Assembly (NCBI GenBank): GCA_964016885.1
Contig: OZ024743.1
Location: 350,982,001 to 351,046,000 of the forward strand
Length of the DNA stretch: 64,000 nucleotides
Origin: Eledone cirrhosa
Lineage: Eukaryota
Reading direction: 5' to 3'
A program made the translations under genes and the position numbers. Below, one piece after another: positions 13,677-64,000 of the stretch (within the stretch, counting starts at the first letter, position 1; each line of letters starts with the position of its first letter). The notes beneath the pieces are model-generated. The model saw only the letters and a list, made by a program, of their open reading frames with translations. It made no database searches and was not told where the DNA came from.

Positions 13677-13902
13677 CAACAGATTAAAGTTTAAGCAAAG
13701 AATCGCTGCTTTCACCCTTAATTAAGATCCCGTTAAGGGTGAAAGCAGCGATTCTTTGCTTAAACTTTAATCTGTTATTTTAATAAATATTTGCTCTACG
13801 GTTCTTATATATTTGATATATATTTATCCTTATCGAGCCCTCTTTGGATTTTAGTCTTCAAATTTATTATTATTACTATATATATATATATATATATACA
13901 AC

Positions 13903-14089: not shown

Positions 14090-14557
14090 ATAATAATAAA
14101 GTTGAAGACTAAAATCCAAAGAGAGCTCCATAAGGATAAATATATATCAAATATATAAGAACCGTAGAGAAAATATTTATTAAAATAACAGATTAAAGTT
14201 TAAGCAAAGAATCGCTGCTTTCACCACTGAAACTAACAAAGTCAATCTGTGAACGCGGAAGTGAATATTTCAAAAAACGTTGCAACCGGAGGAAGACAGG
14301 AAGACGATACTTTGGTTTTGTCTTTGCGTGTAATTGTTTTTCACCGCTCCGAATAATGACGTATTATATTCGTTTTTTCCCGTTCTTTGCGAGGGACCGT
14401 TTCCACGAACCAAAGTATCGTCTTCCTGTCTTCCTCCGGTTGCAACGTTTTTTTAAATATTCACTTCCGCGTTCACAGATTGACTTTGTTAGTTTCAGAA
14501 GATCCCGTTAAGGGTGAAAGCAGCGATTCTTTGCTTAAATTTTAATCTGTTATTTTA

Positions 14558-14565
<8 letters not shown>
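13671..14565. mobile_element. Cluster of palindromic PLE-tail-like elements in (TA)n
   Basis: The same ~150-bp tail in both orientations (13725-13878, 14087-14225, 14500-14565; also 37240-37420, 39031-39072); long inverted repeat 14228-14317/14409-14498. Confidence 0.65.
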
Positions 14566-14601
<36 letters not shown>

Positions 14602-14604
14602 AGT

Positions 14605-14655
14605 GGCTTCTACGAGACTAGAACTGTTTCATTCGGGACAAATCATCAGGAAGCC
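14605..14655 (-). ncRNA. Hammerhead-like motif in an inverted-duplicated PLE tail
   Basis: Minus strand: ggcttc CTGATGA tttgtcccgaat GAAA c...g TA gaagcc; decayed mirror copy on the plus strand ~14656-14708. Confidence 0.65.
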
Positions 14656-16082
14656 CTGGTTTGCCCCGAATGTAACAGTTCTAGTCCGGTAGAAGCCATT
14701 TCTATATTAGACATTTATACTCTGCTATGCATTGAGTACCTTACTTACTGTGGTTACCCCCGATTGAACTCGGGATAAACTTATATATACACACACACAT
14801 ATATATATATATATATTATTTAAGTCACTCCCAACAAGGTGTCAAGTAACAAACAATACACCAGCTTACAAACTACCCCTTAATTTGATCAATCTCAAAA
14901 CCTCATGTGGCAGAGCGTGCTTCTCAATATTTTCAGGATACCTGCGTCCATGCCTGAAGAATTGTAACGGCCATTCAAAACCACACTGTATTGGCATTTT
15001 ACTAATATATATGGTGCAATATCCTGAGAATTGCGGTAAGAATCCTTTCGGCAGGCAGAATACGAACTTACAAAACACGAGTTTAAAAACACGCTCTTAT
15101 CTCTCTGGCCAGAATACAATCAAACGATAATATATCTTAATTGTATATTTCTTTAAAAGTAAATTCTAGAATTAAATGACAATTGTAACATAATTATTTT
15201 AACTTATTTTAAATTATTTAAACATTCCTTCTATGTAACAACTAAACTTTACATAAATATTTATTTTCGTTAACTTAATAAATTTTTGGTGAATGTCTCC
15301 TATCTTGATTGAACTATCTGAATGTACAAAATAATCTTCTCAAATAAAATGTTATAACTACGTCCTTTTCTTAACTATATATTGAAAATGTAAACACATT
15401 CTTCGTAACCCTTAACATATATAAAAATATTTAAATTATCTATCTAGTGAAAATAACAACATATATACTCACCAAAAATATTTATATAAATTCTTATATA
15501 AATAACCCGTTGTAATATAATAAACTAAAATATACTTACAACCTTAAAATATACTTATAAATATTATCTATATAATATAACTCATGATTTGAATAGATCC
15601 AATAATTAGTTGAATATCTCAATTTAAAATAATTTTAAATTGGTATTCTACCACTTCAACAGATTCTTAACTCTCATATTATTTTATAGATACTACCAAG
15701 ATATATGATTATATAATTAAATAATTAAATATAATTATATCACTCTCTTTACACCATCACTGATATCATCCATACAATTTTATCTTAATAATAATAGTGT
15801 ATTTCTAACTATAATTTTTTCTTATAATCATTCCTTAAATTTTCTTACACCCCAATATTAATATTAGCCTCTCTTTTTTTCTTCCTCCATTTATAAATTG
15901 TCCTAATAATTATTTAAATTTACCTAGCGTCTAAATATAACGATCTTTTTTCAGCCTTACGTTTCAACCTCATTTACATATTCATCTAAAAGATTTGAAA
16001 TGTTTCTTTCATTATCCAAACTGAACCTGAACCGATAAGGTCTGGTTTATCGGGTATGTCACCATTTATAAAACAAATTTTG

Positions 16083-16141
16083 TATTTTATCTGATGAGAG
16101 CGTACCAAAATTTTTGTACCCTTGAAATATATTAAATAATA
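16083..16141 (+). ncRNA. Degenerate hammerhead-like motif at the end of an AT-rich element
   Basis: CTGATGA gagcgtac-caaaattttt-gtaccctt GAAA tata TT; stem I has mismatches; ~40 bp before (TA)n. Confidence 0.55.
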
Positions 16142-16478
16142 TATAGTTGAATAACCAACAAATTAAATATCTCTTTGCTTATATATATATATATATATAT
16201 ATAAAAACAAATAACGAAACGAAATTAAATTTCGTTTCGTTTGTAACTCACTTTTGTATGACTGACGCTTAAACAATTAAGTTAAAAATGTACATCCACA
16301 TATGTATACTGAAATACTAGTATGCATATGAATACACACACGTATACATATGTAGATGTACCAAGTTTTTTCACTGGTCACTTTACTGTGAGTGTCCAGC
16401 TATTCTGTATGTAAACACACAGACAAACCGGTTTTTAGAGTCATACTGGTTTTTGAGGAAACACCTTTCCTCTATTCA

Positions 16479-16564
16479 CCAGAAAGCCAGACAAGGAATA
16501 TTGAACTAGTTTCGTTGTTGTTACAACTCATCAGCAATATTTACCTATCTTCCGGCCTTTCTGG
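16479..16564 (-). ncRNA. Type I hammerhead ribozyme (family B), canonical core
   Basis: Minus strand: aatattg CTGATGA gttg-taacaa-caac GAAA ctag TT caatatt. 7-bp stem I plus long extension (ccagaaag..gcc/ggctttctgg). GUU site; predicted cleavage between 16504 and 16503. Confidence 0.92.
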
Positions 16565-16626
16565 AGAATCATAAAAGCACATATCGTTATATGCTTTTTC
16601 TATGAAAATTAGTAGTGGGCAGACTA

Positions 16627-16634
16627 ATTTGCAT
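16627..16634 (-). promoter_or_regulatory. Octamer ATGCAAAT in the conserved block of the retrozyme-like units (putative snRNA-type distal element)
   Basis: ATTTGCAT here and in each family A unit (e.g. 21211-21218), in homologous context upstream of the HHR. Function is inferred. Confidence 0.45.
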
Positions 16635-16838
16635 AGAGTGTGAGTACGTACCGGTTCAACGGAGACGATAAAAACAAATAACGAAACGAAATTAAATTTC
16701 ACTTCTATTAATGGATTCAAAACTAGTAATAAAATTATTGTACACGCAGATAAAACTAATAACATATACAGCCTAGATTATAATACTTATAGAAAGTTTA
16801 TATATAATGAACTACATAAAAGCTACAAAAAAACCACC

Positions 16839-18842
16839 TTGAAAAACTTAGAAGATATTAATGTTGAGGGTTATAATATAGTGTCTAAACTAGGACTACA
16901 GAGGCATACACAACCCTTCACTCCGAACCCCCCTAGATTCTCTCTGAAGGACCATAAGGAGAACTTCATCAGCAACCCCACGATAAGACTTATCTGCCCT
17001 TCCAAGTCCGACATTGGTATTATCAGCAAGAAGATTTTGGATAAAATCATCCCACAAATTAAACACAAGATACACCTTAAACAATGGGGAAATACGGGTG
17101 AAGTGATTGAATGGTTCAAGGATATCAAGAATAATAAGAACAAAAAATGTATTCAATTCGATATCAATTCGTACTACACCTCTATTTCCCCTATCCTATT
17201 AAATAAGGCACTTATCATGGCCATGACCAATAGCGACCTGACTAGAGCCCAGGTTGATGTCATCCTTGCGGCCCGTAAAACCATAATCACCTTTGAGGAC
17301 CAACTATGGACACGCAAGGATACGCACAACAACTTCGACATAACCATGGGATCTAGTGACTCGGCGCAGGTCACTGATTTGGTCGGCCTATACCTCCTCA
17401 ATGAAATCCATAAGGACCTCCCTTACCTCAACGGTGGTTTGTACCGCGATGATGCACTTCTACTTATAGAATATAAAAAATTTAATATAGAAAGAACTAG
17501 AAAACAACTGCATAAGACATTCAAAAACTTTAACCTTAGTATCACCATGGACAAAAACACTAAAAATGTTAACTTCCTAGACGCCACACTATACCTAGAC
17601 TCAAAAATATATACACCTTTCCATAAGCCTAATGAGAAACTTATTTACGTAGATACCAAGTCTAATCACCCTAGATCAATATTAAACTCTATCTCTAAGG
17701 GGGTGTCCAATAGAATCTCTAGTCTGTCCTATGACGCAAACATATTTAGCAAAAACTCACAATATTACAATCAAGCATTAGCTAGCTCCGGCCATAATAT
17801 AGAAATTGAGTTCCTACCTAAGAAAACACATAGCTACAACATCATCTCGCACAACATGTCCATGAGAAAATCTAATAATAGGAATAGCAACCACAAGTAC
17901 ACCAAAGCGGAGGGTGCCACCGGTAGTAACCATTACCATGGAAACTACTGTGGGGCCTTAGGAGGAAGCAACACACCAAACACTAAAAGCAAAAGTAGAA
18001 GAAGAAATAATACATTTTTCAACCCTCCTTTCAACCTAAATGTCTCCACCAACATACCTAGGGCTTTCTTCTCACTACTAGATAAAAACTTCCCTCTAGG
18101 ACACAAGTACCACAACCACTTAAACAAAAACACCATTAAAATCTCATACTCTACGACGCCTAACTTAGCATACCACATAGCTAGCAGCAATAATAGTAAA
18201 ATTAGTTCTTACTTCCAACAAACAAAATCACAACGGGATGCAAACCCTCTAAATACCACTGTAGCAAGCAACCATAGCAACGGCAGTATCAATAGAAATA
18301 ACACTAGTATAAGTAATAACACCAGGGTTGTCAACCCGAACACCCAAAATCCTATATCTACCACACAGACTTCCGCATTGCATTATAACCAGCGGACCAA
18401 CGCACAGGATAATTGTAACTGTAGAGCTAATAGAACCTGCCCTTTAGATAAAAAATGCCTAACCAAGGATGTCATATACTCATGCACCGTCACGACTAAT
18501 AACTCTTCAGAAACCTATGTAGGCTCCACTTCTAACTGCTTCAAAATCAGATATAATTCGCACATCCACTCGTTCAAAAAGCACAGCCTAGCCAACTCCA
18601 CCTCACTTTCTAGCTACATACACTATCTAAAATCTAAAAATAAACCATACACACTCAAATGGGAAGTGATAGGCAGCGCGACCTCGTACAAACCACCTAA
18701 TAAATTCTGCAACCTCTGTATACTAGAGACACACAATATTATCTTCTCCAACCGTAACCTACTTAACAAAAAATCTGAGGTGTTTGCAACTTGCCAGCAC
18801 CGCCTCAGACATTTCTTCCAAAACTTTAAGCCCAATATATAG
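16839..18842 (+). CDS. Penelope-like element polyprotein (reverse transcriptase + thumb + C-terminal GIY-YIG endonuclease), Naiad-like; 5'-truncated
   Basis: 667-aa ORF. RT motifs FDINSYYTSI, ITMGSSDSAQVTDLVG, GGLYRDDAL, VNFLDATL. Linker CNCRANRTCPLDKKC. GIY-YIG VIYSC...TYVGST...FKIRYNSH; C-terminal CNLCILE...LLNKKSE...CQH. The frame stays open upstream to the junction at 16701 and includes ADKTNNIY (DKG-type motif as DKT), so the listed TTG start is not the true start. Confidence 0.93.
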   Translation: MKNLEDINVEGYNIVSKLGLQRHTQPFTPNPPRFSLKDHKENFISNPTIRLICPSKSDIGIISKKILDKIIPQIKHKIHLKQWGNTGEVIEWFKDIKNNKNKKCIQFDINSYYTSISPILLNKALIMAMTNSDLTRAQVDVILAARKTIITFEDQLWTRKDTHNNFDITMGSSDSAQVTDLVGLYLLNEIHKDLPYLNGGLYRDDALLLIEYKKFNIERTRKQLHKTFKNFNLSITMDKNTKNVNFLDATLYLDSKIYTPFHKPNEKLIYVDTKSNHPRSILNSISKGVSNRISSLSYDANIFSKNSQYYNQALASSGHNIEIEFLPKKTHSYNIISHNMSMRKSNNRNSNHKYTKAEGATGSNHYHGNYCGALGGSNTPNTKSKSRRRNNTFFNPPFNLNVSTNIPRAFFSLLDKNFPLGHKYHNHLNKNTIKISYSTTPNLAYHIASSNNSKISSYFQQTKSQRDANPLNTTVASNHSNGSINRNNTSISNNTRVVNPNTQNPISTTQTSALHYNQRTNAQDNCNCRANRTCPLDKKCLTKDVIYSCTVTTNNSSETYVGSTSNCFKIRYNSHIHSFKKHSLANSTSLSSYIHYLKSKNKPYTLKWEVIGSATSYKPPNKFCNLCILETHNIIFSNRNLLNKKSEVFATCQHRLRHFFQNFKPNI

Positions 18843-20286: not shown

Positions 20287-20333
20287 TGCTCCGAAGAATC
20301 CAAACCTCGGTTTGGAGGAAACAGCCATAAGCA
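20287..20333 (+). ncRNA. Hammerhead-like motif with CCGAAGA core at the PLE 3' end
   Basis: tgct CCGAAGA a-tccaaacc-tc-ggtttgga-g GAAA cagcca TA agca. Confidence 0.6.
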
Positions 20334-20364
20334 TAATAATGTTTTGAACAGTTCTTTGATTCTT

Positions 20365-20409
<45 letters not shown>

Positions 20410-20843
20410 GGAAGCATTGTGGAATATGAAAAATCGCTTTTTAGAAGCCTCTACAATGCAGATGGATAAATCTCTGGGCAACACAATCAGGTAGCAGTAG
20501 GAAGAAAAATGTAAAAAGAAATGTAAAATGAAATGAAAACCAGAGATGAAGTTACCCTAGAATAATTTTATGCGTCCCTGTATTTCGGATTTCATATCCA
20601 TCGTCGAGTGATTCAGAAATAAAATTAGAGATTTGTCGGAAAAGAATCTACGTGACCGTTTGTTGCTAGTCTCGGTGAAGTGTGGAGCGATTATGAGACT
20701 CATAAAAAAATGTAGTAAGACTAAGCGCTTCGAAATGTCAAGCGCATAGTGATATGATACTTAGCGTGGTGACAGGAAACGTAAGCATATGTGTGTGTGT
20801 TCATGTGTGCGTGTGTATGTGTGTATGATGAGTGTGTGTAAAC

Positions 20844-20900
<57 letters not shown>

Positions 20901-21082
20901 TATGTACACGTACATACATATATGTATACAGACGTACAGTAGTATGTATATATATATACATACATGCACACATATATATATGTACGTATGGAATCACCGA
21001 ACATTTATTATAATGCTCGGTGTGTTTGTAAACAAACATCCCGTATTAAGCCGTAGTGTCCAGCAACCATCGTTGCTCGTTT

Positions 21083-21169
21083 GTTCAACACTGACAAAGG
21101 AACGATGTACTAGTTTCAAGCTTATTAGCTATCGTCAGCAACGTATACCTTCCTGCCAGATTGTTGAAC
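21083..21169 (-). ncRNA. Type I hammerhead ribozyme (family A copy 1)
   Basis: Minus strand: acgttg CTGACGA t-agct-aata-agct-t GAAA ctag TA catcgt. Palindromic stem III ACTAGT, GUA site, extended stem I (gttcaaca/tgttgaac, ctggca/tgtcag, aagg/cctt). Confidence 0.88.
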
Positions 21170-21516
21170 GTATATACTTAGCTTATGCATATTAACGGCT
21201 GAGTAGCCCAATTTGCATATCGAGTGGGTTAATCGGCCGGGTGCACCGAAAACAATAAACGGAAAAATGAAACGCAATTTCATTTCCCACACTTAGTACG
21301 GCTGTTACTTAAATATAAGTATGTACACGTACATACATATATGTATACAGTCGTACAGTAGTATGTATATATATATACATGCACACATATATATATAAAC
21401 GTATGGATTCAGCGAACATTTATTATAATGCTCGGTGTGTTTGTAAACAAACATCCCGTATTAAGCCGTAGTGTCCAGCAACCATCGTTGCTTGTTTGTT
21501 CAACGCTGACAAAGGA

Positions 21517-21559
21517 ACGCTCTACTAGTTTCAAGATTATTAGCTATCGTCAGCAACGT
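21517..21559 (-). ncRNA. Hammerhead ribozyme (family A copy 2, stems I and II mutated)
   Basis: Same core; one substitution in stem II and one in the first stem I pair. Confidence 0.7.
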
Positions 21560-21938
21560 ATACCTTCCTGCCAGATTGTTGAACGTATATACTTACCTTA
21601 TTCATATTAACGGCTGAGTAGCCCAATTTGCATATCGAGTGGGTTAATCGGCCGGGTGCACCGAAAACGATAAACGGAAAAAATGAAACGAAATTTCATT
21701 TCCCACTCTTATTACGGCTGTTACTTAAATATAATTATGTACACGTACATACATATATGTATACAGTCGTACAGTAGTATGTATATATATATATACATAC
21801 ATGCACACATATATATATGTACGTATGGATTCACCGAACATTTATTATAATGCTCGGTGTGTTTGTAAACAAACATCCCGTATTAAGCCGTAGTGTCCAG
21901 CAACCATCGCTGCTCGTTTGTTCAACACTGACAAAGGA

Positions 21939-21981
21939 ACGTCGTACTACTTTCAAGCTTATTAGCTATCGTCAGCAACGT
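21939..21981 (-). ncRNA. Hammerhead ribozyme (family A copy 3, stem III mutated)
   Basis: Same core; stem III reads gtag instead of ctag; stem I acgttg/cgacgt still pairs. Confidence 0.7.
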
Positions 21982-22338
21982 ATACCTTCCTGCCAGATTG
22001 TTGAACGTATATACTTACCTTATGCATATTAACGGATGGGTAGCCCAATTTGCATATCGAGTGGGTTAATCGGCCGGGTGCACCGAAAACGATAAACGGA
22101 AAAAATGAAACGAAATTTCATTTCCCACTCTTAGTACGGCTGTTACTTAAATATAAGTATGTATACAGTCGTACAGTAGTATGTATATATATATACATAC
22201 ATGCACACATATATATATGAACGTATGGATTCACCGAACATTTATTATAATGCTCGGTGTGTTTGTAAACAAACATCTCGTATTAAGCCGTAGTGTCCAG
22301 CAAACATCGTTGCTCGTTTGTTCAACACTGACAAAGGA

Positions 22339-22381
22339 ACGATGTACTAGTTTCAAGCTTATTAGCTATCGTCAGCAACGT
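22339..22381 (-). ncRNA. Hammerhead ribozyme (family A copy 4)
   Basis: Core identical to copy 1. Confidence 0.85.
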
Positions 22382-22758
22382 ATACCTTCCTGCCAGATTG
22401 TTGAACGTATATACTTACCTTATGCATATTAACGGCTGAGTAGCCCAATTTGCATATCGAGTGGGTTAATCGGCCGGGTGCACCGAAAACGATAAACGGA
22501 AAAAATGAAACGAAATTTCATTTCTCACTCTTAGTACGGCTGTTACTTAAATATAAGTATGTACACGTACATACATATATGTAAACAGTCGTACAGTAGT
22601 ATGTATATATATATACATACATGCACACATATATATATGTACGTATGGATTCACCGAACATTTATTATAATGCTCGGTGTGTTTGTAAACAAACATCCCG
22701 TATTAAGCCGTAGTGTCCAGCAACCATCGCTGCTCGTTTGTTCAACACTGACAAAGGA

Positions 22759-22801
22759 ACGCTGTACTAGTTTCAAGCTTATTAGCTATCGTCAGCAACG
22801 C
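22759..22801 (-). ncRNA. Hammerhead ribozyme (family A copy 5)
   Basis: gcgttg CTGACGA tagctaataagctt GAAA ctag TA cagcgt; stem I fully paired including G-U. Confidence 0.87.
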
Positions 22802-23235
22802 ATACCTTCCTGCCAGATTGTTGAACGTATATACTTACCTTATGCATATTAACGGCTGAGTAGCCCAATTTGCATATCGAGTGAGTTAATCGGCCGGGTG
22901 CACCGAAAATGATAAACGGGATGTTTGTTTACAAACACACCGAGCATTATAATAAATGTTCGGTGAATCCATACGTGCATATATAAATGTGTGCATGTAT
23001 GTATATATATATACATACTACTGTACGACTGTATACATATATGTATGTACGTGTACATACTTATATTTAAGTAACAGCCGTACTAAGAGTGGGAAATGAA
23101 ATTTCATTTCATTTTTTCCGTTTATCGTTTTCGGTGCACCCGGCCGATTAACCCACTCGATATGCAAATTGGGCTACTCAGCCGTTAATATGCATAAGGT
23201 AAGTATATACGTTAAACTATCTGGCAGGAAGGTAT

Positions 23236-23278
23236 ACGTTGCTGACGATAGCTAATAAGCTTGAAACTAGTACAGTGT
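23236..23278 (+). ncRNA. Hammerhead ribozyme (family A, inverted copy)
   Basis: Plus strand: acgttg CTGACGA(23242-48) t-agct-aata-agct-t GAAA(23263-66) ctag TA cagtgt. Confidence 0.87.
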
Positions 23279-23539
23279 TCCTTTGTCAGTGTTGAACAAA
23301 CGAGCAACGATGGTTGCTGGACACTACGGCTTAATACGGGATGTTTGTTTACAAACACACGGAGCATTATAATAAATGTTCGGTGAATCCATACGTGCAT
23401 ATATATATGTGTGCATGTATGTATATTTATATACATACTACTGTACGTCTGTATACATATATGCATGTACGTGTACATACTTATATTTAAGTAACAGCCG
23501 TACTAAGAGTGGGAAATGAAATTACGTTTCATTTTTTCC

Positions 23540-23579
<40 letters not shown>

Positions 23580-37222: not shown

Positions 37223-37415
37223 CCTTAAAATATATATATATAGTAATAATAATAAATTTCAAGTCTAAAATCCAAAGAGGGCTCAATAGGGATAGATATA
37301 TATCAAATATATAAGAACCGTACAGCAAATATTTATTAAAATAACAGATTAAAGTTTAAGCAAGATCCCGTTAAGGGTGAAAGCAGCGATTCTTTGCTTA
37401 AACTTTAATCTGTTA

Positions 37416-37511
<96 letters not shown>

Positions 37512-39204: not shown

Positions 39205-39275
39205 TGACGTATATGGGAGTCGAACCCACATCTGCGGTTATCCAGACCAATGTGCTATCATTACACCAACACATC
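39205..39275 (-). tRNA. tRNA-like cloverleaf (nominal anticodon GGA, short variable loop); probably a pseudo-tRNA or mobile Pol III unit
   Basis: gatgtgt-tg-gtgt-aatgata-gcac-a-ttggt-ctGGAta-accgc-agat-gtggg-ttcgact-cccat-atacgtc-a; all four stems pair (one anticodon-stem mismatch); TTTTT ~10 nt downstream. Confidence 0.55.
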
Positions 39276-45229: not shown

Positions 45230-48200
45230 GTTGCTGCTGCTACTTTTGTTGTGTTACTGCTGCTGATGTTACTGTTACTACTGCTGTTGATGCTGCTGCT
45301 GTTGTCTTACTGCTGCTGCTATTACTGTTACTATTACTGTTGATGCTGCTGCTGTTGTCTTACTGGTGCTGCTATTACTGTTACTACTACTGTTGATGCT
45401 GCTGCTGTTGTGTTACTGCTGCTGCTATTACTGTTACTACTACTGTTTATGCTGCTGCTGTTGTGTTACTGCTGCTGCTATTACTGTTACTATTACTGTT
45501 GATGCTGCTGCTGTTGTCTTACTGGTGCTGCTACTACTGTTACTACTACTGTTGATGCTGCTGCTGTTGTGTTACTGCTGTTGCTATTGCTGTTACTACT
45601 ACTGTTGATGCTGCTGCTGTTGTGTTACTGCTGCAGCTATTACTGTTACTACTACTGTTGATGCTGCTGCCGTGGTGTTACTGCTGCTGCTATTACTGTT
45701 ACTACTACTGTTGATGCTGCTGCTGTTGTGGTACTACTGCTGCTATTACTGTTACTACTACTGTTTATGCTGCTGCTGTTGTGTTACTGCTGCTGCTATT
45801 ACTGTTACTATTACTGTTGATGCTGCTGCTGTGGTGTTACTGCTGCTGCTATTAGTGTTACTACTACTGTTGATGCTGCTGCTGTTGTGGTACTACTGCT
45901 GCTATTACTGTTACTACTACTGTTTATGTTGCTGCTGTTGTGTTACTGCTGCTGCTATTACTGTTACTATTACTGTTGATGCTGCTGCTGTTGTCTTACT
46001 GGTGCTGCTACTACTGTTACTACTACTGTTGATGCTGCTGCTGTTGTGTTACTGCTGCTGCTATTACTGTTACTACTACTGTTGATGCTGCTGCTGTTGT
46101 GTTACTGCTGCTGCTATTGCTGTTACTACTACTGTTTATGCTGCTGCTGTTGTGTTACTGCTGCTGCTATTGCTGTTACTACTACTGTTGATGCTGCTGC
46201 TGTTGTGTTACTGCTGCTGCTATTGCTGTTACTACTAGTGTTTATGCTGCTGCTGTTGTGTTACTGCTGCTGCTATTACTGTTACTACTACTGTTGATGC
46301 TGCTGCTGTTGTCTTACTGCTGCTGCTATAGCTGTTACTACTACTGTTGATGCTGCTGCTGTTGTGTTACTGCTGCTGCTATTACTGTTATTACTACTGT
46401 TGATGCTGCTGCTGTCGTGTTACTGCTGCTGCTATTGCTGTTACTACTACTGTTGATGCTGCTGCTGTTGTATTACTGCTGCTGCTATTACTGTTACTAC
46501 TACTGTTGATGCTGCTGCTGTTGTGTTACTGCTGCTGCTATTACTGTTACTACTACTGTTGATGCTGCTGCTGTTGTGTTACTGCTGCTGCTATTACTGG
46601 TACTCCTACTGTTGATGCTGCTGCTGTTGTCTTACTGCTGCTGCTATTACTGTTACTACTACTGTTGATGCTGCTGCTGTTGTGTTACTGCTGCTGCTAT
46701 TACTGTTACAACTACTGTTGATGCTGCTGCTGTTGTCTTACTGCTGCTGCTATTACTGTTACTACTACTGTTGATGCAGCTGCTGTTGTGTTACTGCTGC
46801 TGCTATTACTGTTACTACTACTGTTGATGCTGCTGCTGTTGTGTTACTGCTGCTGCTATTACTGTTACTATTACTGTTGATGCTGCTGCTGTTGTCTTAC
46901 TGGTGCTGCTACTACTGTTACTACTACTGTTGATGCTGCTGCTGTGTGTTACTTCTGCTGCTATTACTGTTACTACTACTGTTGATGCTGCTGCTGTGGT
47001 GTTACTGCTGCTGCTATTACTGTTACTACTACTGTTGATGCTGCTGCTGTGGTGTTACTGCTGCTGCTATTACTGTTACTACTACTGTTGATGCTGCTGC
47101 TGTGGTGTTACTGCTGCTGCTATTACTGTTACTACTACTGTTGATGCTGCTGCTGTTGTGTTACTGCTGCTGCTATTACTGTTACTACTACTGTTGATGC
47201 TGCTGCTGTTGTCTTACTGCTGCTGCTATTGCTGTTACTACTACTGTTGATGCTGCTGCTGTTGTGTTACTGCTGCTGCTATTACTGTTATTACTACTGT
47301 TGATGCTGCTGCTGTCGTGTTACTGCTGCTGCTATTGCTGTTACTACTACTGTTGATGCTGCTGCTGTTGTATTACTGCTGCTGCTATTACTGTTACTAC
47401 TACTGTTGATGCTGCTGCTGTTGTGTTACTGCTGCTGCTATTACTGTTACTACTACTGTTGATGCTGCTGCTGTTGTGTTACTGCTGCTGCTATTACTGG
47501 TACTCCTACTGTTGATGCTGCTGCTGTTGTCTTACTGCTGCTGCTATTACTGTTACTACTACTGTTGATGCTGCTGCTGTTGTATTACTGCTGCTGCTAT
47601 TACTGTTACAACTACTGTTGATGCTGCTGCTGTTGTCTTACTGCTGCTGCTATTACTGTTACTACTACTGTTGATGCAGCTGCTGTTGTGTTACTGCTGC
47701 TGCTATTACTGTTACTACTACTGTTGATGCTGCTGCTGTTGTGTTACTGCTGCTGCTATTACTGTTACTATTACTGTTGATGCTGCTGCTGTTGTCTTAC
47801 TGGTGCTGCTACTACTGTTACTACTACTGTTGATGCTGCTGCTGTGTGTTACTTCTGCTGCTATTACTGTTACTACTACTGTTGATGCTGCTGCTGTGGT
47901 GTTACTGCTGCTGCTATTACTGTTACTACTACTGTTGATGCTGCTGCTGTGGTGTTACTGCTGCTGCTATTACTGTTACTACTACTGTTGATGCTGCTGC
48001 TGTGGTGTTACTGCTGCTGCTATTACTGTTACTACTACTGTTGATGCTGCTGCTGTTGTGTTACTGCTGCTGCTATTACTGTTACTACTACTGTTTATGC
48101 TGCTGCTGTTGTGTTACTGCTGCAGCTATTACTGTTACTACTACTGTTGATGCTGCTGCTGTGGTGTTACTGCTGCTGCTATTACTGTTACTACTACTGT

Positions 48201-51200
48201 TGATGCTGCTGCTGTTGTGGTACTTCTGCTGCTATTACTGTTACTACTACTGTTTATGCTGCTGCTGTTGTGTTACTGCTGCTGCTATTACTGTTACTAC
48301 TACTGTTGATGCTGCTGCTGTTGTGTTACTGCTGCAGCTATTACTGTTACTACTACTGTTGATGCTGCTGCTGTGGTGTTACTGCTGCTGCTATTACTGT
48401 TACTACTACTGTTGATGCTGCTGCTGTTGTGGTACTACTGCTGCTATTACTGTTACTACTACTGTTTATGCTGCTGCTGTTGTATTACTGCTGCTGCTAT
48501 TGCTGTTACTACTACTGTTGATGCTGCTGCTGTTGTGGTACTACTGCTGCTATTGCTGTTACTACTACTGTTTATGCTGCTGCTGTTGTGTTACTGCTGC
48601 TGCTATTGCTGTTACTACTACTGTTGATGCTGCTTCTGTTGTGGTACTACTGCTGCTATTACTGTTACTACTACTGTTGATGCTGCTGCTGTTGTGTTAC
48701 TGCTGCTATTACTGTTACTACTACTGTTGATGCTGCTGCTGTTGTGTTACTGCTGCTGCTATTGCTGTTACTACTATTGTTGGTGCTGCTGCTGTTGTGT
48801 TACTGCTGCTGCTATTGCTGTTACTACTACTGTTGATGATGCTGCTGTCGTGTTACTGCTGATGCTATTACTGTTACTACTACTGTTGATGCTGGTGCTG
48901 TTGTGTTACTGCTGCTGCTATTGCTGTTACTACTACTGTTGATGCTGCTGCTGTTGTGGTACTACTGCTGCTATTGCTGTTACTACTACTGTTTATGCTG
49001 CTGCTGTTGTGTTACTGCTGCTGCTATTGCTGTTACTACTACTGTTGATGATGCTGCTGTCGTGTTACTGCTGATGCTATTACTGTTACTACTACTGTTG
49101 ATGCTGGTGCTGTTGTGTTACTGCTGCTGCTATTACTGTTACTACTACTGTTGATGCTGGTGCTGTTGTGTTACTACTGCTGCTATTACTGTTACTACTA
49201 CTGTTGGTGCTGCAGCTGTTGTGGTACTACTGCTGCTATTACTGTTACTACTACTGTTGATGCTGCTGCTGTTGTGTTACTGCTGCTGCTATTACTGTTA
49301 CTACTACTGTTGATGCTGCTGCTGTTGTGTTACTGCTGCTGCTATTACTGTTACTACTACTGTTGATGCTGCTGCTGTTGTGTTACTGCTGCTGCTATTA
49401 CTGTTACTACTACTGTTGATGCTGCTGCTGTTGTGTTACTGCTGCTGCTATTACTGTTACTACTACTGTTGATGCTGCTGCTGTGTGTTACTGCTGCTGC
49501 TATTACTGTTACTACTACTGTTGATGTTGCTGCTGTTATGTTACTGCTGCTGCTATTACTGTTACTACTACTGTTGATGTTGCTGCTGTTGTGTTACTGC
49601 TGCTGCTACTACTGTTACTACTACTGTTGATGTTGCTGCTGTTGTCTTACTGCTGCTGCTATTACTGTTACTACTACTGTTGATGCTGCTGCTGTTGTGT
49701 TACTGCTGCTGCTATTACTGTTACAACTACTGTTGATGCTGCTGCTGTTGTCTTACTGCTGCTGCTATTACTGTTACTACTACTGTTGATGCAGCTGCTG
49801 TTGTCTTACTGCTGCTGCTATTACTGTTACTACTACTGTTGATGCTGCTGCTGTTGTGTTACTGCTGCTGCTATTACTGTTACTATTACTGTTGATGCTG
49901 CTGCTGTTGTCTTACTGGTGCTGCTACTACTGTTACTACTACTGTTGATGCTGCTGCTGTGTGTTACTTCTGCTGCTATTACTGTTACTACTACTGTTGA
50001 TGCTGCTGCTGTGGTGTTACTGCTGCTGCTATTACTGTTACTACTACTGTTGATGCTGCTGCTGTGGTGTTACTGCTGCTGCTATTACTGTTACTACTAC
50101 TGTTGATGCTGCTGCTGTGGTGTTACTGCTGCTGCTATTACTGTTACTACTACTGTTGATGCTGCTGCTGTTGTGTTACTGCTGCTGCTATTACTGTTAC
50201 TACTACTGTTTATGCTGCTGCTGTTGTGTTACTGCTGCAGCTATTACTGTTACTACTACTGTTGATGCTGCTGCTGTGGTGTTACTGCTGCTGCTATTAC
50301 TGTTACTACTACTGTTGATGCTGCTGCTGTTGTGGTACTTCTGCTGCTATTACTGTTACTACTACTGTTGATGCTGCTGCTGTTGTGTTACTGCTGCAGC
50401 TATTACTGTTACTACTACTGTTGATGCTGCTGCTGTGGTGTTACTGCTGCTGCTATTACTGTTACTACTACTGTTGATGCTGCTGCTGTTGTGGTACTAC
50501 TGCTGCTATTACTGTTACTACTACTGTTTATGCTGCTGCTGTTGTATTACTGCTGCTGCTATTGCTGTTACTACTACTGTTGATGCTGCTGCTGTTGTGG
50601 TACTACTGCTGCTATTGCTGTTACTACTACTGTTTATGCTGCTGCTGTTGTGTTACTGCTGCTGCTATTGCTGTTACTACTACTGTTGATGCTGCTTCTG
50701 TTGTGGTACTACTGCTGCTATTACTGTTACTACTACTGTTGATGCTGCTGCTGTTGTGTTACTGCTGCTATTACTGTTACTACTACTGTTGATGCTGCTG
50801 CTGTTGTGTTACTGCTGCTGCTATTGCTGTTACTACTATTGTTGGTGCTGCTGCTGTTGTGTTACTGCTGCTGCTATTGCTGTTACTACTACTGTTGATG
50901 ATGCTGCTGTCGTGTTACTGCTGATGCTATTACTGTTACTACTACTGTTGATGCTGGTGCTGTTGTGTTACTGCTGCTGCTATTGCTGTTACTACTACTG
51001 TTGATGCTGCTGCTGTTGTGGTACTACTGCTGCTATTGCTGTTACTACTACTGTTTATGCTGCTGCTGTTGTGTTACTGCTGCTGCTATTGCTGTTACTA
51101 CCACTGTTGATGATGCTGCTGTCGTGTTACTGCTGATGCTATTACTGTTACTACTACTGTTGATGCTGGTGCTGTTGTGTTACTGCTGCTGCTATTACTG

Positions 51201-54200
51201 TTACTACTACTGTTGATGCTGGTGCTGTTGTGTTACTACTGCTGCTATTACTGTTACTACTACTGTTGGTGCTGCAGCTGTTGTGGTACTACTGCTGCTA
51301 TTACTGTTACTACTACTGTTGATGCTGCTGCTGTTGTGTTACTGCTGCTGCTATTACTGTTACTACTACTGTTGATGCTGCTGCTGTTGTGTTACTGCTG
51401 CTGCTATTACTGTTACTACTACTGTTGATGCTGCTGCTGTTGTGTTACTGCTGCTGCTATTACTGTTACTACTACTGTTGATGCTGCTGCTGTTGTGTTA
51501 CTGCTGCTGCTATTACTGTTACTACTACTGTTGATGCTGCTGCTGTGTGTTACTGCTGCTGCTATTACTCTTACTACTACTGTTTATGCTGCTGCTGTTA
51601 TGTTACTGCTGCTGCTATTACTGTTACTACTACTGTTGATGTTGCTGCTGTTGTGTTACTGCTGCTGCTACTACTGTTACTACTACTGTTGATGTTGCTG
51701 CTGTTGTCTTACTGCTGCTGCTATTACTGTTACTACTACTGTTGATGCTGCTGCTGTTGTGTTACTGCTGCTGCTATTACTGTTACAACTACTGTTGATG
51801 CTGCTGCTGTTGTCTTACTGCTGCTGCTATTACTGTTACTACTACTGTTGATGATGCTGCTGTGGTGTTACTGCTGCTGCTATTACTGTTACTACTACTG
51901 TTGATGCTGCTGCTGTGGTGTTACTGCTGCTGCTATTACTGTTACTACTACTGTTGATGCTGCTGCCGTGGTGTTACTGCTGCTGCTATTACTGTTACTA
52001 CTACTGTTGATGCTGCTGCTGTTGTGTTACTGCTGCTGCTACTACTGTTACTACTACTGTTGATGCTGCTGCTGTTGTGTTACTGCTGCTGCTATTACTG
52101 TTACTACTACTGTTGATGCTGCTGCTGTTGTCTTGCTGCTGCTGCTATTACTGTTACTACTACTGTTGATGATGCTGCTGTGGTGTTACTGCTGCTGCTA
52201 TTACTGTTACTACTACTGTTGATGCTGCTGCTGTGGTGTTACTGCTGCTGCTATTACTGTTACTACTACTGTTGATGCTGCTGCCGTGGTGTTACTGCTG
52301 CTGCTATTACTGTTACTACTACTGTTGATGCTGCTGCTGTTGTGTTACTGCTGCTGCTATTACTGTTACTACTACTGTTGATGCTGCTGCTGTTGTGTTA
52401 CTGCTGCTGCTATTACTGTTACTACTACTGTTGATGCTGCTGCTGTGGTGTTACTGCTGCTGCTATTACTGTTACTACTACTGTTGATGCTGCTGCTGTT
52501 GTGTTACTGCTGCTGCTATTACTGTTACTACTACTGTTGATGCTGCTGCTGTGGTGTTACTGCTGCTGCTATTACTGTTACTACTACTGTTGATGTTGCT
52601 GCTGTTGTGTTACTGCTGCTGCTATTGCTGTTACTACTACTGTTGATGCTGCTGCTGTTGTGGTACTACTGCTGCTATTGCTGTTACTACTACTGTTTAT
52701 GCTGCTGCTGTGTGTTACTGCTGCTGCTATTACTCTTACTACTACTGTTTATGCTGCTGCTGTTATGTTACTGCTGCTGCTATTACTGTTACTACTACTG
52801 TTGATGTTGCTGCTGTTGTGTTACTGCTGCTGCTACTACTGTTACTACTACTGTTGATGTTGCTGCTGTTGTCTTACTGCTGCTGCTATTACTGTTACTA
52901 CTACTGTTGATGCTGCTGCTGTTGTGTTACTGCTGCTGCTATTACTGTTACAACTACTGTTGATGCTGCTGCTGTTGTCTTACTGCTGCTGCTATTACTG
53001 TTACTACTACTGTTGATGATGCTGCTGTGGTGTTACTGCTGCTGCTATTACTGTTACTACTACTGTTGATGCTGCTGCTGTGGTGTTACTGCTGCTGCTA
53101 TTACTGTTACTACTACTGTTGATGCTGCTGCCGTGGTGTTACTGCTGCTGCTATTACTGTTACTACTACTGTTGATGCTGCTGCTGTTGTGTTACTGCTG
53201 CTGCTACTACTGTTACTACTACTGTTGATGCTGCTGCTGTTGTGTTACTGCTGCTGCTATTACTGTTACTACTACTGTTGATGCTGCTGCTGTTGTCTTG
53301 CTGCTGCTGCTATTACTGTTACTACTACTGTTGATGATGCTGCTGTGGTGTTACTGCTGCTGCTATTACTGTTACTACTACTGTTGATGCTGCTGCTGTG
53401 GTGTTACTGCTGCTGCTATTACTGTTACTACTACTGTTGATGCTGCTGCCGTGGTGTTACTGCTGCTGCTATTACTGTTACTACTACTGTTGATGCTGCT
53501 GCTGTTGTGGTACTACTGCTGCTATTACTGTTACTACTACTGTTTATGCTGCTGCTGTTGTATTACTGCTGCTGCTATTGCTGTTACTACTACTGTTGAT
53601 GCTGCTGCTGTTGTGGTACTACTGCTGCTATTGCTGTTACTACTACTGTTTATGCTGCTGCTGTTGTGTTACTGCTGCTGCTATTGCTGTTACTACTACT
53701 GTTGATGCTGCTTCTGTTGTGGTACTACTGCTGCTATTACTGTTACTACTACTGTTGATGCTGCTGCTGTTGTGTTACTGCTGCTATTACTGTTACTACT
53801 ACTGTTGATGCTGCTGCTGTTGTGTTACTGCTGCTGCTATTGCTGTTACTACTATTGTTGGTGCTGCTGCTGTTGTGTTACTGCTGCTGCTATTGCTGTT
53901 ACTACTACTGTTGATGATGCTGCTGTCGTGTTACTGCTGATGCTATTACTGTTACTACTACTGTTGATGCTGGTGCTGTTGTGTTACTGCTGCTGCTATT
54001 GCTGTTACTACTACTGTTGATGCTGCTGCTGTTGTGGTACTACTGCTGCTATTGCTGTTACTACTACTGTTTATGCTGCTGCTGTTGTGTTACTGCTGCT
54101 GCTATTGCTGTTACTACCACTGTTGATGATGCTGCTGTCGTGTTACTGCTGATGCTATTACTGTTACTACTACTGTTGATGCTGGTGCTGTTGTGTTACT

Positions 54201-57200
54201 GCTGCTGCTATTACTGTTACTACTACTGTTGATGCTGGTGCTGTTGTGTTACTACTGCTGCTATTACTGTTACTACTACTGTTGGTGCTGCAGCTGTTGT
54301 GGTACTACTGCTGCTATTACTGTTACTACTACTGTTGATGCTGCTGCTGTTGTGTTACTGCTGCTGCTATTACTGTTACTACTACTGTTGATGCTGCTGC
54401 TGTTGTGTTACTGCTGCTGCTATTACTGTTACTACTACTGTTGATGCTGCTGCTGTTGTGTTACTGCTGCTGCTATTACTGTTACTACTACTGTTGATGC
54501 TGCTGCTGTTGTGTTACTGCTGCTGCTATTACTGTTACTACTACTGTTGATGCTGCTGCTGTGTGTTACTGCTGCTGCTATTACTCTTACTACTACTGTT
54601 TATGCTGCTGCTGTTATGTTACTGCTGCTGCTATTACTGTTACTACTACTGTTGATGTTGCTGCTGTTGTGTTACTGCTGCTGCTACTACTGTTACTACT
54701 ACTGTTGATGTTGCTGCTGTTGTCTTACTGCTGCTGCTATTACTGTTACTACTACTGTTGATGCTGCTGCTGTTGTGTTACTGCTGCTGCTATTACTGTT
54801 ACAACTACTGTTGATGCTGCTGCTGTTGTCTTACTGCTGCTGCTATTACTGTTACTACTACTGTTGATGATGCTGCTGTGGTGTTACTGCTGCTGCTATT
54901 ACTGTTACTACTACTGTTGATGCTGCTGCTGTGGTGTTACTGCTGCTGCTATTACTGTTACTACTACTGTTGATGCTGCTGCCGTGGTGTTACTGCTGCT
55001 GCTATTACTGTTACTACTACTGTTGATGCTGCTGCTGTTGTGTTACTGCTGCTGCTACTACTGTTACTACTACTGTTGATGCTGCTGCTGTTGTGTTACT
55101 GCTGCTGCTATTACTGTTACTACTACTGTTGATGCTGCTGCTGTTGTCTTGCTGCTGCTGCTATTACTGTTACTACTACTGTTGATGATGCTGCTGTGGT
55201 GTTACTGCTGCTGCTATTACTGTTACTACTACTGTTGATGCTGCTGCTGTGGTGTTACTGCTGCTGCTATTACTGTTACTACTACTGTTGATGCTGCTGC
55301 CGTGGTGTTACTGCTGCTGCTATTACTGTTACTACTACTGTTGATGCTGCTGCTGTTGTGTTACTGCTGCTGCTATTACTGTTACTACTACTGTTGATGC
55401 TGCTGCTGTTGTGTTACTGCTGCTGCTATTACTGTTACTACTACTGTTGATGCTGCTGCTGTGGTGTTACTGCTGCTGCTATTACTGTTACTACTACTGT
55501 TGATGCTGCTGCTGTTGTGTTACTGCTGCTGCTATTACTGTTACTACTACTGTTGATGCTGCTGCTGTGGTGTTACTGCTGCTGCTATTACTGTTACTAC
55601 TACTGTTGATGTTGCTGCTGTTGTGTTACTGCTGCTGCTATTGCTGTTACTACTACTGTTGATGCTGCTGCTGTTGTGGTACTACTGCTGCTATTGCTGT
55701 TACTACTACTGTTTATGCTGCTGCTGTTGTGTTACTGCTGCTGCTATTGCTGTTACTACTACTGTTGATGCTGCTTCTGTTGTGGTACTACTGCTGCTAT
55801 TACTGTTACTACTACTGTTGATGCTGCTGCTGTTGTGTTACTGCTGCTGCTATTACTGTTACTACTACTGTTGATGCTGCTGCTGTTGTGTTACTGCTGC
55901 TGCTATTACTGTTACTACTACTGTTGATGCTGCTGCTTTTGTGTTACTGCTGCTGCTATTACTGTTACTACTACTGTTGATGCTGCTGCTGTTGTGTTAC
56001 TGCTGCTGCTATTACTGTTACTACTACTGTTGATGCTGCTGCTGTTGTGTTACTGCTGCTGCTATTACTGTTACTACTACTGTTGATGCTGCTGCTGTTG
56101 TGTTACTGCTGCTGCTATTACAGTTACTACTACTGTTTATGCTGCTGCTGTTGTGTTACTGCTGCTGCTATTACTGTTACTACTACTGTTGATGCTGCTC
56201 TCTTTTGTGTTACTGCTGCTGCTATTGCTGTTACTACTACTGTTGATGCTGCTGCTTTTGTGTTACTGCTGCTGCTATTACTGTTACTACTACTGTTGAT
56301 GTTGCTGCTATTGTGTTACTGCTGCTGCTATTACTGTTACTACTACTGTTGATGCTGCTGCTGCTGTGTTACTGCTGCTGCTATTGCTGTTACTACTACT
56401 GTTGATGCTGCTGCTGTTGTGTTACTGCTGCTGCTATTACTGTTAGTACTACTGTTGATGCTGCTGCTGTTGTGTTACAGCTGCTGCTATTACTGTTACT
56501 ACTACTGTTGATGCTGCTGCTGTTGTGTTACTGCTGCTGCTATTAGTTACTACTACTGTTGATGCTGCTGCTGTTGTGTTACTGCTGTTGCTATTACTGT
56601 TACTACTACTGTTGGGGCTGCTGTTGTGTTAATGCTGCTGCTATTACTGTTACTACTACTGTTGGTGCTGCTGCTGTTGTGTTACTGCTGCTGCTATTAC
56701 TATTACTACTACTGTTTATGCTGCTGTTGTGTTACTGCTGCTTCTATTACTGTTACTACTACTGTTGATGCTGCTGCTGTTGTGGTACTGCTGCTGCTAT
56801 TACTGTTACTACTACTGTTTATGCTGCTGCTGTGTGGTACTGCTGCTGCTATTGTTGTTACTACTACTGTTGATGCTGCTGCTGTTGTGTTACTACTACT
56901 GTTTATGCTGCTGCTGTTGTGTTACTGCTGCTGCTATTGCTGTTACTATTACTGTTTATGCTGCTGTTGTTGTGTTACTGCTGCTGCTATTGCTGTTACT
57001 ACTACTATTTATGCTGCTGCTGTTGTGTTACTGCTGCTGCTATTGCTGTTACTACTACTGTTTATGCTGCTGCTGTGTGTTACTGCTGCTGCTATTACTG
57101 ATACTACTACTGTTTATGCTGCTGCTGTGGTGTTACTGCTGCTGCTATTACTGATAATACTACTGTTGATGCTGCTGCTGTTGTGTTACTGCTGTTGCTA

Positions 57201-63200: not shown

Positions 63201-64000
63201 TACTGCTGCTGCTATTACTGTTACTACTACTGTTTATGCTGCTGCTGTTGTGTTACTTCTGCTGCTATTACTGTTACTACTACTGTTGATGATGCTGCTG
63301 TTGTGTTACTGCTGCTGCTATTACTGTTACTACTACTGTTGATGATGCTGCTGTTGTGTTACTGCTGCTGCTATTACTGTTACTACTACTGTTGGTGCTG
63401 CTGTTGTGTTAATGCTGCTGCTATTACTGTTACTACTACTGTTGGTGCTGCTGCTGTTGTGTTACTGCTGCTGCTATTACTGTTTCTACTACTGTTGATG
63501 CTGCTGCTGTTGTGTTACTGCTGCTGCTATTACTGTTACTACTACTGTTGATGCTGCTGCTGTTGTGTTACTGCTGCTGCTATTGCTGTTTCTACTACTG
63601 TTGATGCTGCTGCTGTTGTGTTACTGCTGCTGCTATTACTGTTACTACTACTGTTTATGCTGCTGCTGTTGTGTTACTGCTGCTGCTATTACTGTTACTA
63701 CTACTGTTGATGATGCTGCTGTTGTGTTACTGCTGCTGCTATTACTGTTACTACTACTGTTTATGTTGCTGCTGTTGTGTTACTGCTGCTGCTATTGCTG
63801 TTACTACTACTGTTGATGATGCTGCTGTTACTGTTACTACTACTGTTTATGCTGCTGCTGTTGTGTTACTGCTGCTGCTATTACTGTTACTATTACTGTT
63901 GATGCTGCTGCTGTTGTGTTACTGCTGCTGCTATTACTGTTACTACTACTGTTGATGCTACTGCTGTTGTGTTACTGCTGCTGCTATTGCTGTTACTACT
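45230..64000. repeat. 53-bp satellite (gttgatgctgctgctgttgtgttactgctgctgctattactgttactactact)n with higher-order duplications; continues past the window end
   Basis: Direct reading of the unit; roughly 350 copies; variant blocks recur at offsets 900, 1165, 2062/2115 and 3016 bp. Confidence 0.97.

What the first reader, a model, noticed from the sequence alone, without database searches (positions are those of the whole stretch)
16201..18842. Second retrozyme family fused head-to-head to the truncated 5' end of an uninterrupted Penelope ORF
Seen: after (TA)n comes a 467-bp unit with a canonical minus-strand HHR. It runs 33 bp beyond one full unit (16201-16233 = 16668-16700) and joins directly at 16700/16701 to PLE RT sequence just upstream of the DKT motif. 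The composite is bounded by (TA)n at both ends (~16180-16202 and ~20372). Established: PLE insertions often carry an inverted segment at the truncated 5' end. Inference: here that position is taken by a different RNA, so one integration may have used both PLE mRNA and retrozyme RNA. That would physically link this retrozyme to its autonomous partner. Reading past one unit fits a circular or multimeric template.
Basis: partly seen in the sequence, partly recalled or inferred. Interest (0 to 1): 0.88.

Follow-up and report, generated by a model that had tools for sequence, protein, structure and literature searches.

The report
Retrozyme fused head-to-head to Penelope element
A repeat carrying a self-cutting RNA motif is joined head-to-head to a broken-off Penelope-type jumping gene, likely because two different RNAs were copied into one DNA break, but the same jumping gene is also fused to other repeats, so the join does not show which enzyme spreads this repeat.

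Summary
A 467-bp hammerhead unit plus 33 bp joins, with 1 nt of microhomology, a Hydra-clade Penelope-like element (PLE) lacking its first 106 codons, all between (TA)n tracts. Both parts are independent young families: the unit has at least 2,236 TA-anchored ends, and 29 of 29 other PLE copies have ordinary coding sequence upstream. Both families insert as two head-to-head arms, one starting at a tailed site and one at a tail-less site; same-family arms are nearly identical, so normally one template serves both. Here the tailed arm is retrozyme and the tail-less arm PLE. Best reading (0.6): one integration primed from both ends of a (TA)n break on two RNAs, like antisense LINE-1 chimeras. Main rival (0.28): two neighbouring insertions fused by deletion. 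Among 143 insertions of this PLE I found four more foreign-arm fusions: two with another retrozyme, two with other autonomous PLE families; only one is tailed plus tail-less. So such fusions are promiscuous and do not name the retrozyme's partner. Read support for the junction is untested. This scan noted two-armed retrozymes and similar fusions before, on other DNA of this genome.

The parts
16180..16202 (.). left (TA)n tract, target remnant; its left side is the HHR-bearing 3' end of an older repeat
16201..16667 (-). retrozyme unit, 467 bp (466 bp in most copies); hammerhead strand is minus; about 99% identical to its best genomic copies
16201..16275 (-). tail of the unit: between the tailed start site (16201) and the tail-less start site (unit position 70-78) used by the family's arms
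16213..16241 (-). 13-bp hairpin in the tail (z -3.08 for 16201-16280)
16481..16552 (-). type I hammerhead ribozyme, predicted cut after GUU between 16504 and 16503 (inferred from the canonical numbering)
16627..16634 (+). octamer ATTTGCAT, kept in 287 of 306 listed matches and in the 422-bp family; promoter role is inference
16668..16700 (-). 33 bp of a second unit; the arm ends inside the hairpin
16700..16701 (.). head-to-head junction, 1 nt (C) shared by both parents, no added bases
16701..18842 (+). 5'-truncated Hydra-clade PLE ORF (713 codons; DKT 16749, RDD 17445, CxCx5C 18414, GIY-YIG-like 18513, CxxC 18708, CxH 18792); intact copies encode 819-846 aa
18843..20371 (+). PLE 3' untranslated region / pLTR, ending at the family's tail-less site (672 exact TA-anchored matches genome-wide)
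20287..20335 (+). minimal hammerhead-like motif of the PLE (core CCGAAGA, palindromic stem III in 93 of 127 copies; three changes unique to this copy)
20372..20406 (.). right (TA)17.5 tract

Best explanation
This is a two-armed Penelope-type insertion whose arms come from two different repeat families, likely made in one event in which a cut in a (TA)n tract primed reverse transcription from both ends, one end on the PLE RNA and the other on the retrozyme RNA. Shown: both families insert into (TA)n as two head-to-head arms with two fixed start sites; the retrozyme arm here starts at its tailed site, the PLE arm at its tail-less site; they join with 1 nt of microhomology. Inferred: a PLE GIY-YIG endonuclease cut both strands; one RT copied 3.67 kb of PLE RNA; a second RT copied 500 nt of an uncut multimeric or circular retrozyme RNA, passing the hammerhead cut site and stalling in the tail hairpin; the two cDNA ends were joined by end-joining. 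Normally both arms come from one RNA or one source locus; use of a second, unrelated RNA is a rare accident (about 3% of this PLE's insertions) and is not specific to the element's own non-autonomous partner.
For: Architecture: 33 of 33 short/long end pairs within 15 kb on contig C1 bracket head-to-head, 0 short-short, 0 long-long; in 120 fetched PLE loci 59 long+short, 9 more with a mini partner, 1 long+long, 0 short+short. Unit: about 30 of 34 closed tail-anchored insertions have a short-site partner, none a second tailed end (hand count). The composite is long+short. The retrozyme arm ends at unit position 33; 9 of 46 boundary-crossing arms end at 25-51 (window chosen after seeing the data, p 0.001) and 3 of 17 in a second set (p 0.07). 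Both parts are equally young: 2 private differences in 467 bp against 31 in 3,671 (p 0.58). 1-nt overlap is within the range of same-family junctions. Foreign sequence is captured inside otherwise normal long+short insertions (L229, L191). Two fusions to the 422-bp retrozyme among 143 insertions against 0.09-0.17 expected from its 0.9% local density if 10-19 joins were random deletions (p about 0.004-0.013). The unit covers only 0.02-0.07% of those flanks. In vitro a PLE cuts and extends both strands and starts at two internal sites that bound the tail (PMC11167929); opposite-orientation LINE-1 chimeras are ascribed to twin priming (PMC13174262).
Against: Only 2 of 5 foreign-arm fusions (window included) are long+short; L108 and L132 are short+short, L178 long+long, so the long+short match here carries little weight. 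L108 and L112 keep an inverted inner piece, as a deletion between two two-armed insertions would leave. Same-family arms are far closer to each other than to other copies (e.g. 0 differences in 1,684, 2 in 1,495), so two-RNA events are not the norm. The site is a pile-up of TA-targeted repeats, and 2 unit insertions lie 1-3.3 kb from a PLE end in C1:0-122 Mb. About a fifth of PLE insertions have no partner arm (28 of 120 TA/AT-only). Pure (TA)n flanks give no target-site duplication. No second fusion of this unit with this PLE was found (0 of 120 PLE loci, 0 of 40 unit loci).
Confidence: 0.6

Rival explanations
1. Two separate insertions into the same (TA)n hot spot, one retrozyme and one PLE, were fused by loss of the inner arms and spacer, either when the second inserted or later.
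For: TA tracts collect several elements; PLE arms are joined directly to unrelated neighbouring repeats in several loci (L110, L125, L152, L168, L185, L200); 2 of 5 fusions long+short fits the 50% that deletion predicts; L108 and L112 keep inverted inner pieces.
Against: The unit is sparse beside PLE copies (0.02-0.07% of flank); fusions to the 422-bp family exceed the random expectation; the arm ends in a zone where cDNA ends are enriched about 3.5-fold; both parts are the same age.
Confidence: 0.28
2. One RNA carried both sequences (read-through or ligated transcript), or one RT switched template, so only one RNA-protein complex was involved.
For: Same-family arms share one template; discontinuous cDNA pieces occur inside intact insertions (L129, L130, L147).
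Against: RNA fusion and template switching give same-orientation chimeras (PMC13174262); here the two RNAs are in opposite orientation and each arm begins at its own family's start site at a (TA)n edge. No source locus with both parts was seen.
Confidence: 0.07
3. The junction is an assembly chimera between two repeats.
For: The junction is single-copy and no listed contig piece bridged it (which lists only 32 of over 6,300 pieces).
Against: Both arms carry their own private variants and end at canonical sites; four comparable fusions occur elsewhere; the parents share only 1 nt at the join, giving an assembler no overlap.
Confidence: 0.05

Closest known systems
Head-to-head insertions and the optional 'tail' of EN+ Penelope-like elements (PMC8557442 passages and section 11; PMC3846280 passages; PMC11167929 parts 1-2 of 4)
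   Same: Inverted 5'-truncated partner at the 5' end, a tail at only one end, two RT start sites bounding the tail, AT-rich target.
   Different: The inverted partner here is a different, non-coding element; tails are 169 nt (PLE) and about 72 nt (unit) rather than 30-40 nt; the start sites show a few AT bases matching the (TA)n primer.
Antisense LINE-1 chimeras with Alu, tRNA, 5S or U5 RNA, ascribed to twin priming (PMC13174262 passages)
   Same: A foreign RNA is copied at the 5' end of a truncated autonomous element in opposite orientation.
   Different: PLE enzyme, (TA)n target without a diagnostic duplication, internal start sites instead of poly(A), and a partner read past one unit length.
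Metazoan non-LTR retrozymes (PMC7229834 passages and Discussion; bioRxiv 10.64898/2026.07.22.740005 parts 1-3 of 5)
   Same: Tandem non-coding units each with one type I hammerhead with a short palindromic helix III; PLEs proposed as the mobilising enzyme.
   Different: 467 bp (above the 150-400 nt typical size, within the 51-972 bp range of the preprint); no homology to this PLE's pLTR, unlike the Xenopus families; the texts read describe neither two-armed insertions nor fusions to PLEs.
Hydra clade of PLEs (PMC8557442 section 11)
   Same: DKT, CxCx5C linker, CxxC and CxH, no CCHH, (TA)n target, C-terminal endonuclease.
   Different: RWR rather than RWK; monomer 4.2 kb rather than under 3 kb; hammerhead core CCGAAGA rather than canonical.

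Membership tests
Hydra-clade PLE | DKG modified to DKT | tested here: met
   DKT at 16749
Hydra-clade PLE | N-terminal RWK motif | tested here: inconclusive
   intact copies read RVRWR at that place; missing from the window copy
Hydra-clade PLE | CxCx5C linker, CxxC and CxH in a C-terminal GIY-YIG, no CCHH | tested here: met
   motifs at 18414, 18708, 18792; no CxxH..H pattern; Pfam GIY-YIG E 0.02, below cut-off
Hydra-clade PLE | insertion into (TA)n | tested here: met
   672 and 877 TA-anchored exact ends
Hydra-clade PLE | canonical hammerhead in the pLTR | tested here: inconclusive
   minimal motif with core CCGAAGA; not found by Rfam
Hydra-clade PLE | generally under 3 kb | tested here: not met
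   tandem period 3,671 + 529 = 4,200 bp; the paper says 'generally'
Hydra-clade PLE | placement in an RT tree | not tested
   no reference sequences were obtained
Non-LTR retrozyme | short non-coding tandem unit, one type I hammerhead per unit | tested here: met
   466-bp arrays, 3,544 exact 26-mer matches; covarying stem II
Non-LTR retrozyme | self-cleavage and circular RNA in vivo | not testable with these tools
   needs bench assay or RNA data
Non-LTR retrozyme derived from a PLE pLTR | homology to the pLTR of the PLE | tested here: not met
   best local score 27 against shuffled maximum 31 for this PLE; other PLE families not tested
Twin-primed chimeric insertion | segments in opposite orientation, each starting at its own priming site | tested here: met
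Twin-primed chimeric insertion | one target-site duplication or one empty site spanning both | tested here: inconclusive
   flanks are pure (TA)n; no close paralog of the right flank (best other match 73-86%)

The most novel reading that the evidence does not exclude
PLE integration is a two-ended reaction in which one RNA normally feeds both ends from two start sites, but in about 3% of events the second end is taken by another RNA-protein complex, of a retrozyme circle or of a different PLE family; this locus is a fossil of a retrozyme RNA and a PLE mRNA being reverse-transcribed into one break.
Probability: 0.45. Interest if true: 0.72.

Novelty: new variant of a known kind. Interest (0 to 1): 0.52.

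Why it matters
How PLEs make their tandem and inverted insertions, and whether they mobilise animal retrozymes, are both stated as open in the papers read. A fusion in which each arm starts at its own family's RT start site shows, if it is one event, that retrozyme RNA is used at the same break and by the same kind of machinery as PLE mRNA, and gives exact RNAs, start sites and target for the existing in vitro PLE assay. It also warns that such fusions cannot be used to pair a retrozyme with its driver.

Tried and rejected
Unit as the regular 5' part or pLTR of this PLE: rejected (29 of 29 other copies have coding sequence upstream; no homology). Chimeric protein: rejected (no ATG in the unit part; first Met at 17217). 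Long+short rule as proof of one event: weakened by my own sample (2 of 5). L188 (15-nt arm of family Y) was dropped from the fusion count because it is an inverted copy of its neighbour's end across the TA tract, and L082 (7 nt) because it is too short. Enrichment of arm ends at the hammerhead cut site: not found (5 of 67, p 0.18). Reads: no RNA holder listed; contigs of four runs cover both families, no listed piece bridges the junction, and several window-private letters were absent, so the runs are uninformative. Siblings of this PLE copy by its private 3' variants: none (1 match); 20 of 61 matches to a unit variant examined, none beside this PLE. Empty paralog of the right flank: none. Pfam on the whole ORF gave only a chance DDE_3 hit; PDB nothing. 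No relatives of the protein were obtained, so no tree. Look-ups of earlier notes by sequence gave nothing. A paper for an octamer-driven promoter in hammerhead repeats was not found; the newt satellite 2 parallel is recalled only.

Full report
Observation. The coordinates hold. 16201-16233 equals 16668-16700. A minus-strand hammerhead lies at 16481-16552 (Rfam HH9, E 6.1e-06, under the gathering score), with core CUGAUGA, a 5-bp stem II, a 7-bp stem I and a 2-nt palindromic loop III. In 187 held copies stem II covaries (T-A 118, A-T 67) and the triplet is GUU in 140, GUC in 45. The frame 16644-18842 is open. The composite runs from (TA)n at about 16180-16202 to (TA)17.5 at 20372-20406. The join has one shared base and no added bases and only this locus spans it among 40 scored candidates.

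The two parts are independent families. The unit occurs as dispersed 466-bp arrays at 98-99% identity, with 3,544 exact matches of one 26-mer and 2,236 TA-anchored tailed ends. All 29 other PLE copies examined have ordinary coding sequence upstream of 16701; 8 of 8 tandem copies translated give 819-846 aa ORFs, so the window copy lacks 106 codons. DKT, CxCx5C, CxxC, CxH, no CCHH and (TA)n targeting match the Hydra clade as defined in section 11 of PMC8557442; RWR for RWK, a 4.2-kb monomer and a CCGAAGA hammerhead core differ, and no tree was built. The unit has no homology to this PLE's UTR or tail, though it is related to the window's 422-bp retrozyme (score 56 against shuffled maximum 25).

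Both families share one insertion architecture. The PLE ends at a tail-less site (672 exact ends) or 169 nt further on (877). On contig C1, from the first 100 listed matches of each pattern, 33 of 33 pairs within 15 kb bracket head-to-head, with no like-with-like pair. I fetched 120 loci: 69 of 92 tail-less ends and 51 of the 67 unpaired tailed ends. The script classed 59 as long+short, 9 as having a mini partner, 1 long+long, 0 short+short, 28 TA/AT only, 19 other, 4 open (it misplaced L130, L191 and L132, corrected by eye). For the unit, about 30 of 34 closed insertions among 40 consecutive tail-anchored loci have a partner starting at position 70-80, none a second tailed end (hand count); L286 is a short+short exception. 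This is the PLE 'tail' signature, which in vitro marks two internal RT start sites used on both strands (PMC11167929; PMC8557442). The two arms of one insertion are far closer to each other than to other copies (35 PLE and 28 unit insertions; e.g. 0 of 1,684, 2 of 1,495, 3 of 2,203 differences against medians of about 1%). That points to one RNA or one source locus for both arms; conversion between inverted arms could also do it and was not excluded.

The composite is a tailed retrozyme arm plus a tail-less PLE arm. Its retrozyme arm ends at unit position 33, inside the tail hairpin; 9 of 46 boundary-crossing arms end at 25-51 (post hoc window) and 3 of 17 in a second set. The two parts carry 2 of 467 and 31 of 3,671 private differences (p 0.58). 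The arm passes the predicted cut site once and re-enters the tail, which a self-cleaved linear monomer could not template; circle and uncut multimer were not told apart.

Other fusions. Among 143 insertions of this PLE on C1 (120 fetched, 23 known only as coordinate pairs) four have a foreign arm of over 100 nt that starts at a canonical site at a (TA)n edge: L112 (422-bp retrozyme long + PLE short), L108 (422-bp short + short), L132 (a second Hydra-like PLE, short + short) and L178 (a third Hydra-like PLE, long + long). L188 and L082 were dropped. None involves the 467-bp unit, nor did any of 40 unit loci. Two fusions to the 422-bp family exceed the 0.09-0.17 expected from random deletion at 0.9% local density, which favours co-integration as a class. 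But only 2 of 5 fusions, window included, are long+short, which fits either random deletion or two independent complexes each free to start at either site, and L108 and L112 keep inverted inner pieces. Since autonomous families with their own proteins are among the partners, a fusion does not show that this PLE drives this retrozyme. That some PLE drives it is well supported by the shared footprint; at least four Hydra-like families are present.

Mechanism. Most likely (0.6) one (TA)n break was primed from both ends on two RNAs and the cDNA ends were joined; steps beyond the architecture are inferred. Fusion of neighbours by deletion (0.28) stays open because the site is a pile-up of TA-targeted repeats, arms without partners are common, and pure TA flanks give no duplication. 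Read evidence across the junction and empty-site haplotypes remain untested (one search is uninformative).

Known and new. Head-to-head PLE insertions, the tail, PLE mobilisation in trans of host sequence (PMC3846280, passages), the proposal that PLEs move retrozymes (PMC7229834, passages and Discussion; bioRxiv 10.64898/2026.07.22.740005, parts 1-3 of 5) and antisense LINE-1 chimeras by twin priming (PMC13174262, passages) are in print. I found no paper describing a retrozyme-PLE head-to-head fusion in searches; PMC13282606 (passages) has no 'retrozyme'; PMC4209133 and PMC9977147 were seen as passages. No supplements were read, and those of the preprint and of PMC8557442 may bear on Hydra hammerheads and retrozyme-PLE homology. 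Earlier notes of this scan describe two-armed retrozymes and several fusions on other DNA of this genome; I had recorded the two-site rule before reading them. Verdict: a real, new variant of a known kind; interest 0.52.

Noticed in passing
window 20894-23545: 422-bp retrozyme insertion with the same two-armed build: tail-less start at 20894, tailed start at 23545, arms meeting near 22920; hammerheads end in GUA; core reads CUGACGA; related to the 467-bp unit.
   Followed up: partly
window 16064-16179: 3' end of another high-copy repeat with a plus-strand minimal hammerhead core at 16091, abutting the left (TA)n.
   Followed up: no
window 20408-20680: Arm of an old repeat family (about 79% to other copies) whose matches start at two positions about 28 nt apart.
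   Followed up: no
window 45247-64000: 53-bp satellite, over 350 copies.
   Followed up: no
window 13683-13771, 14503-14599, 37329-37460: Palindromic AT-rich repeat family; a hammerhead-like core lies on the minus strand at 14649.
   Followed up: no
L229 (G000:C1:104178350-104182050): 65 nt of GC-rich foreign sequence between the tailed and tail-less arms of a unit insertion.
   Followed up: no
L191 (G000:C1:245727231-245734066): A piece that looks like another retroelement's RT lies between the two arms of a normal PLE insertion (identity read by eye).
   Followed up: no
L188 (G000:C1:197721055-197727890): 15-nt inverted copy of the neighbouring element's end across a TA tract stands in for the partner arm, suggesting local fold-back copying.
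   Followed up: partly
G000:C1:5738102-5752751: Unit array of about 30 copies in one arm facing a very short tailed arm.
   Followed up: no
window 16504-16506 and family copies: The youngest unit subfamily has the GUU triplet, older ones GUC; a weaker ribozyme may favour long templates (inference).
   Followed up: partly
window 39205-39275: tRNA-like match on the minus strand, 50.1 bits.
   Followed up: no
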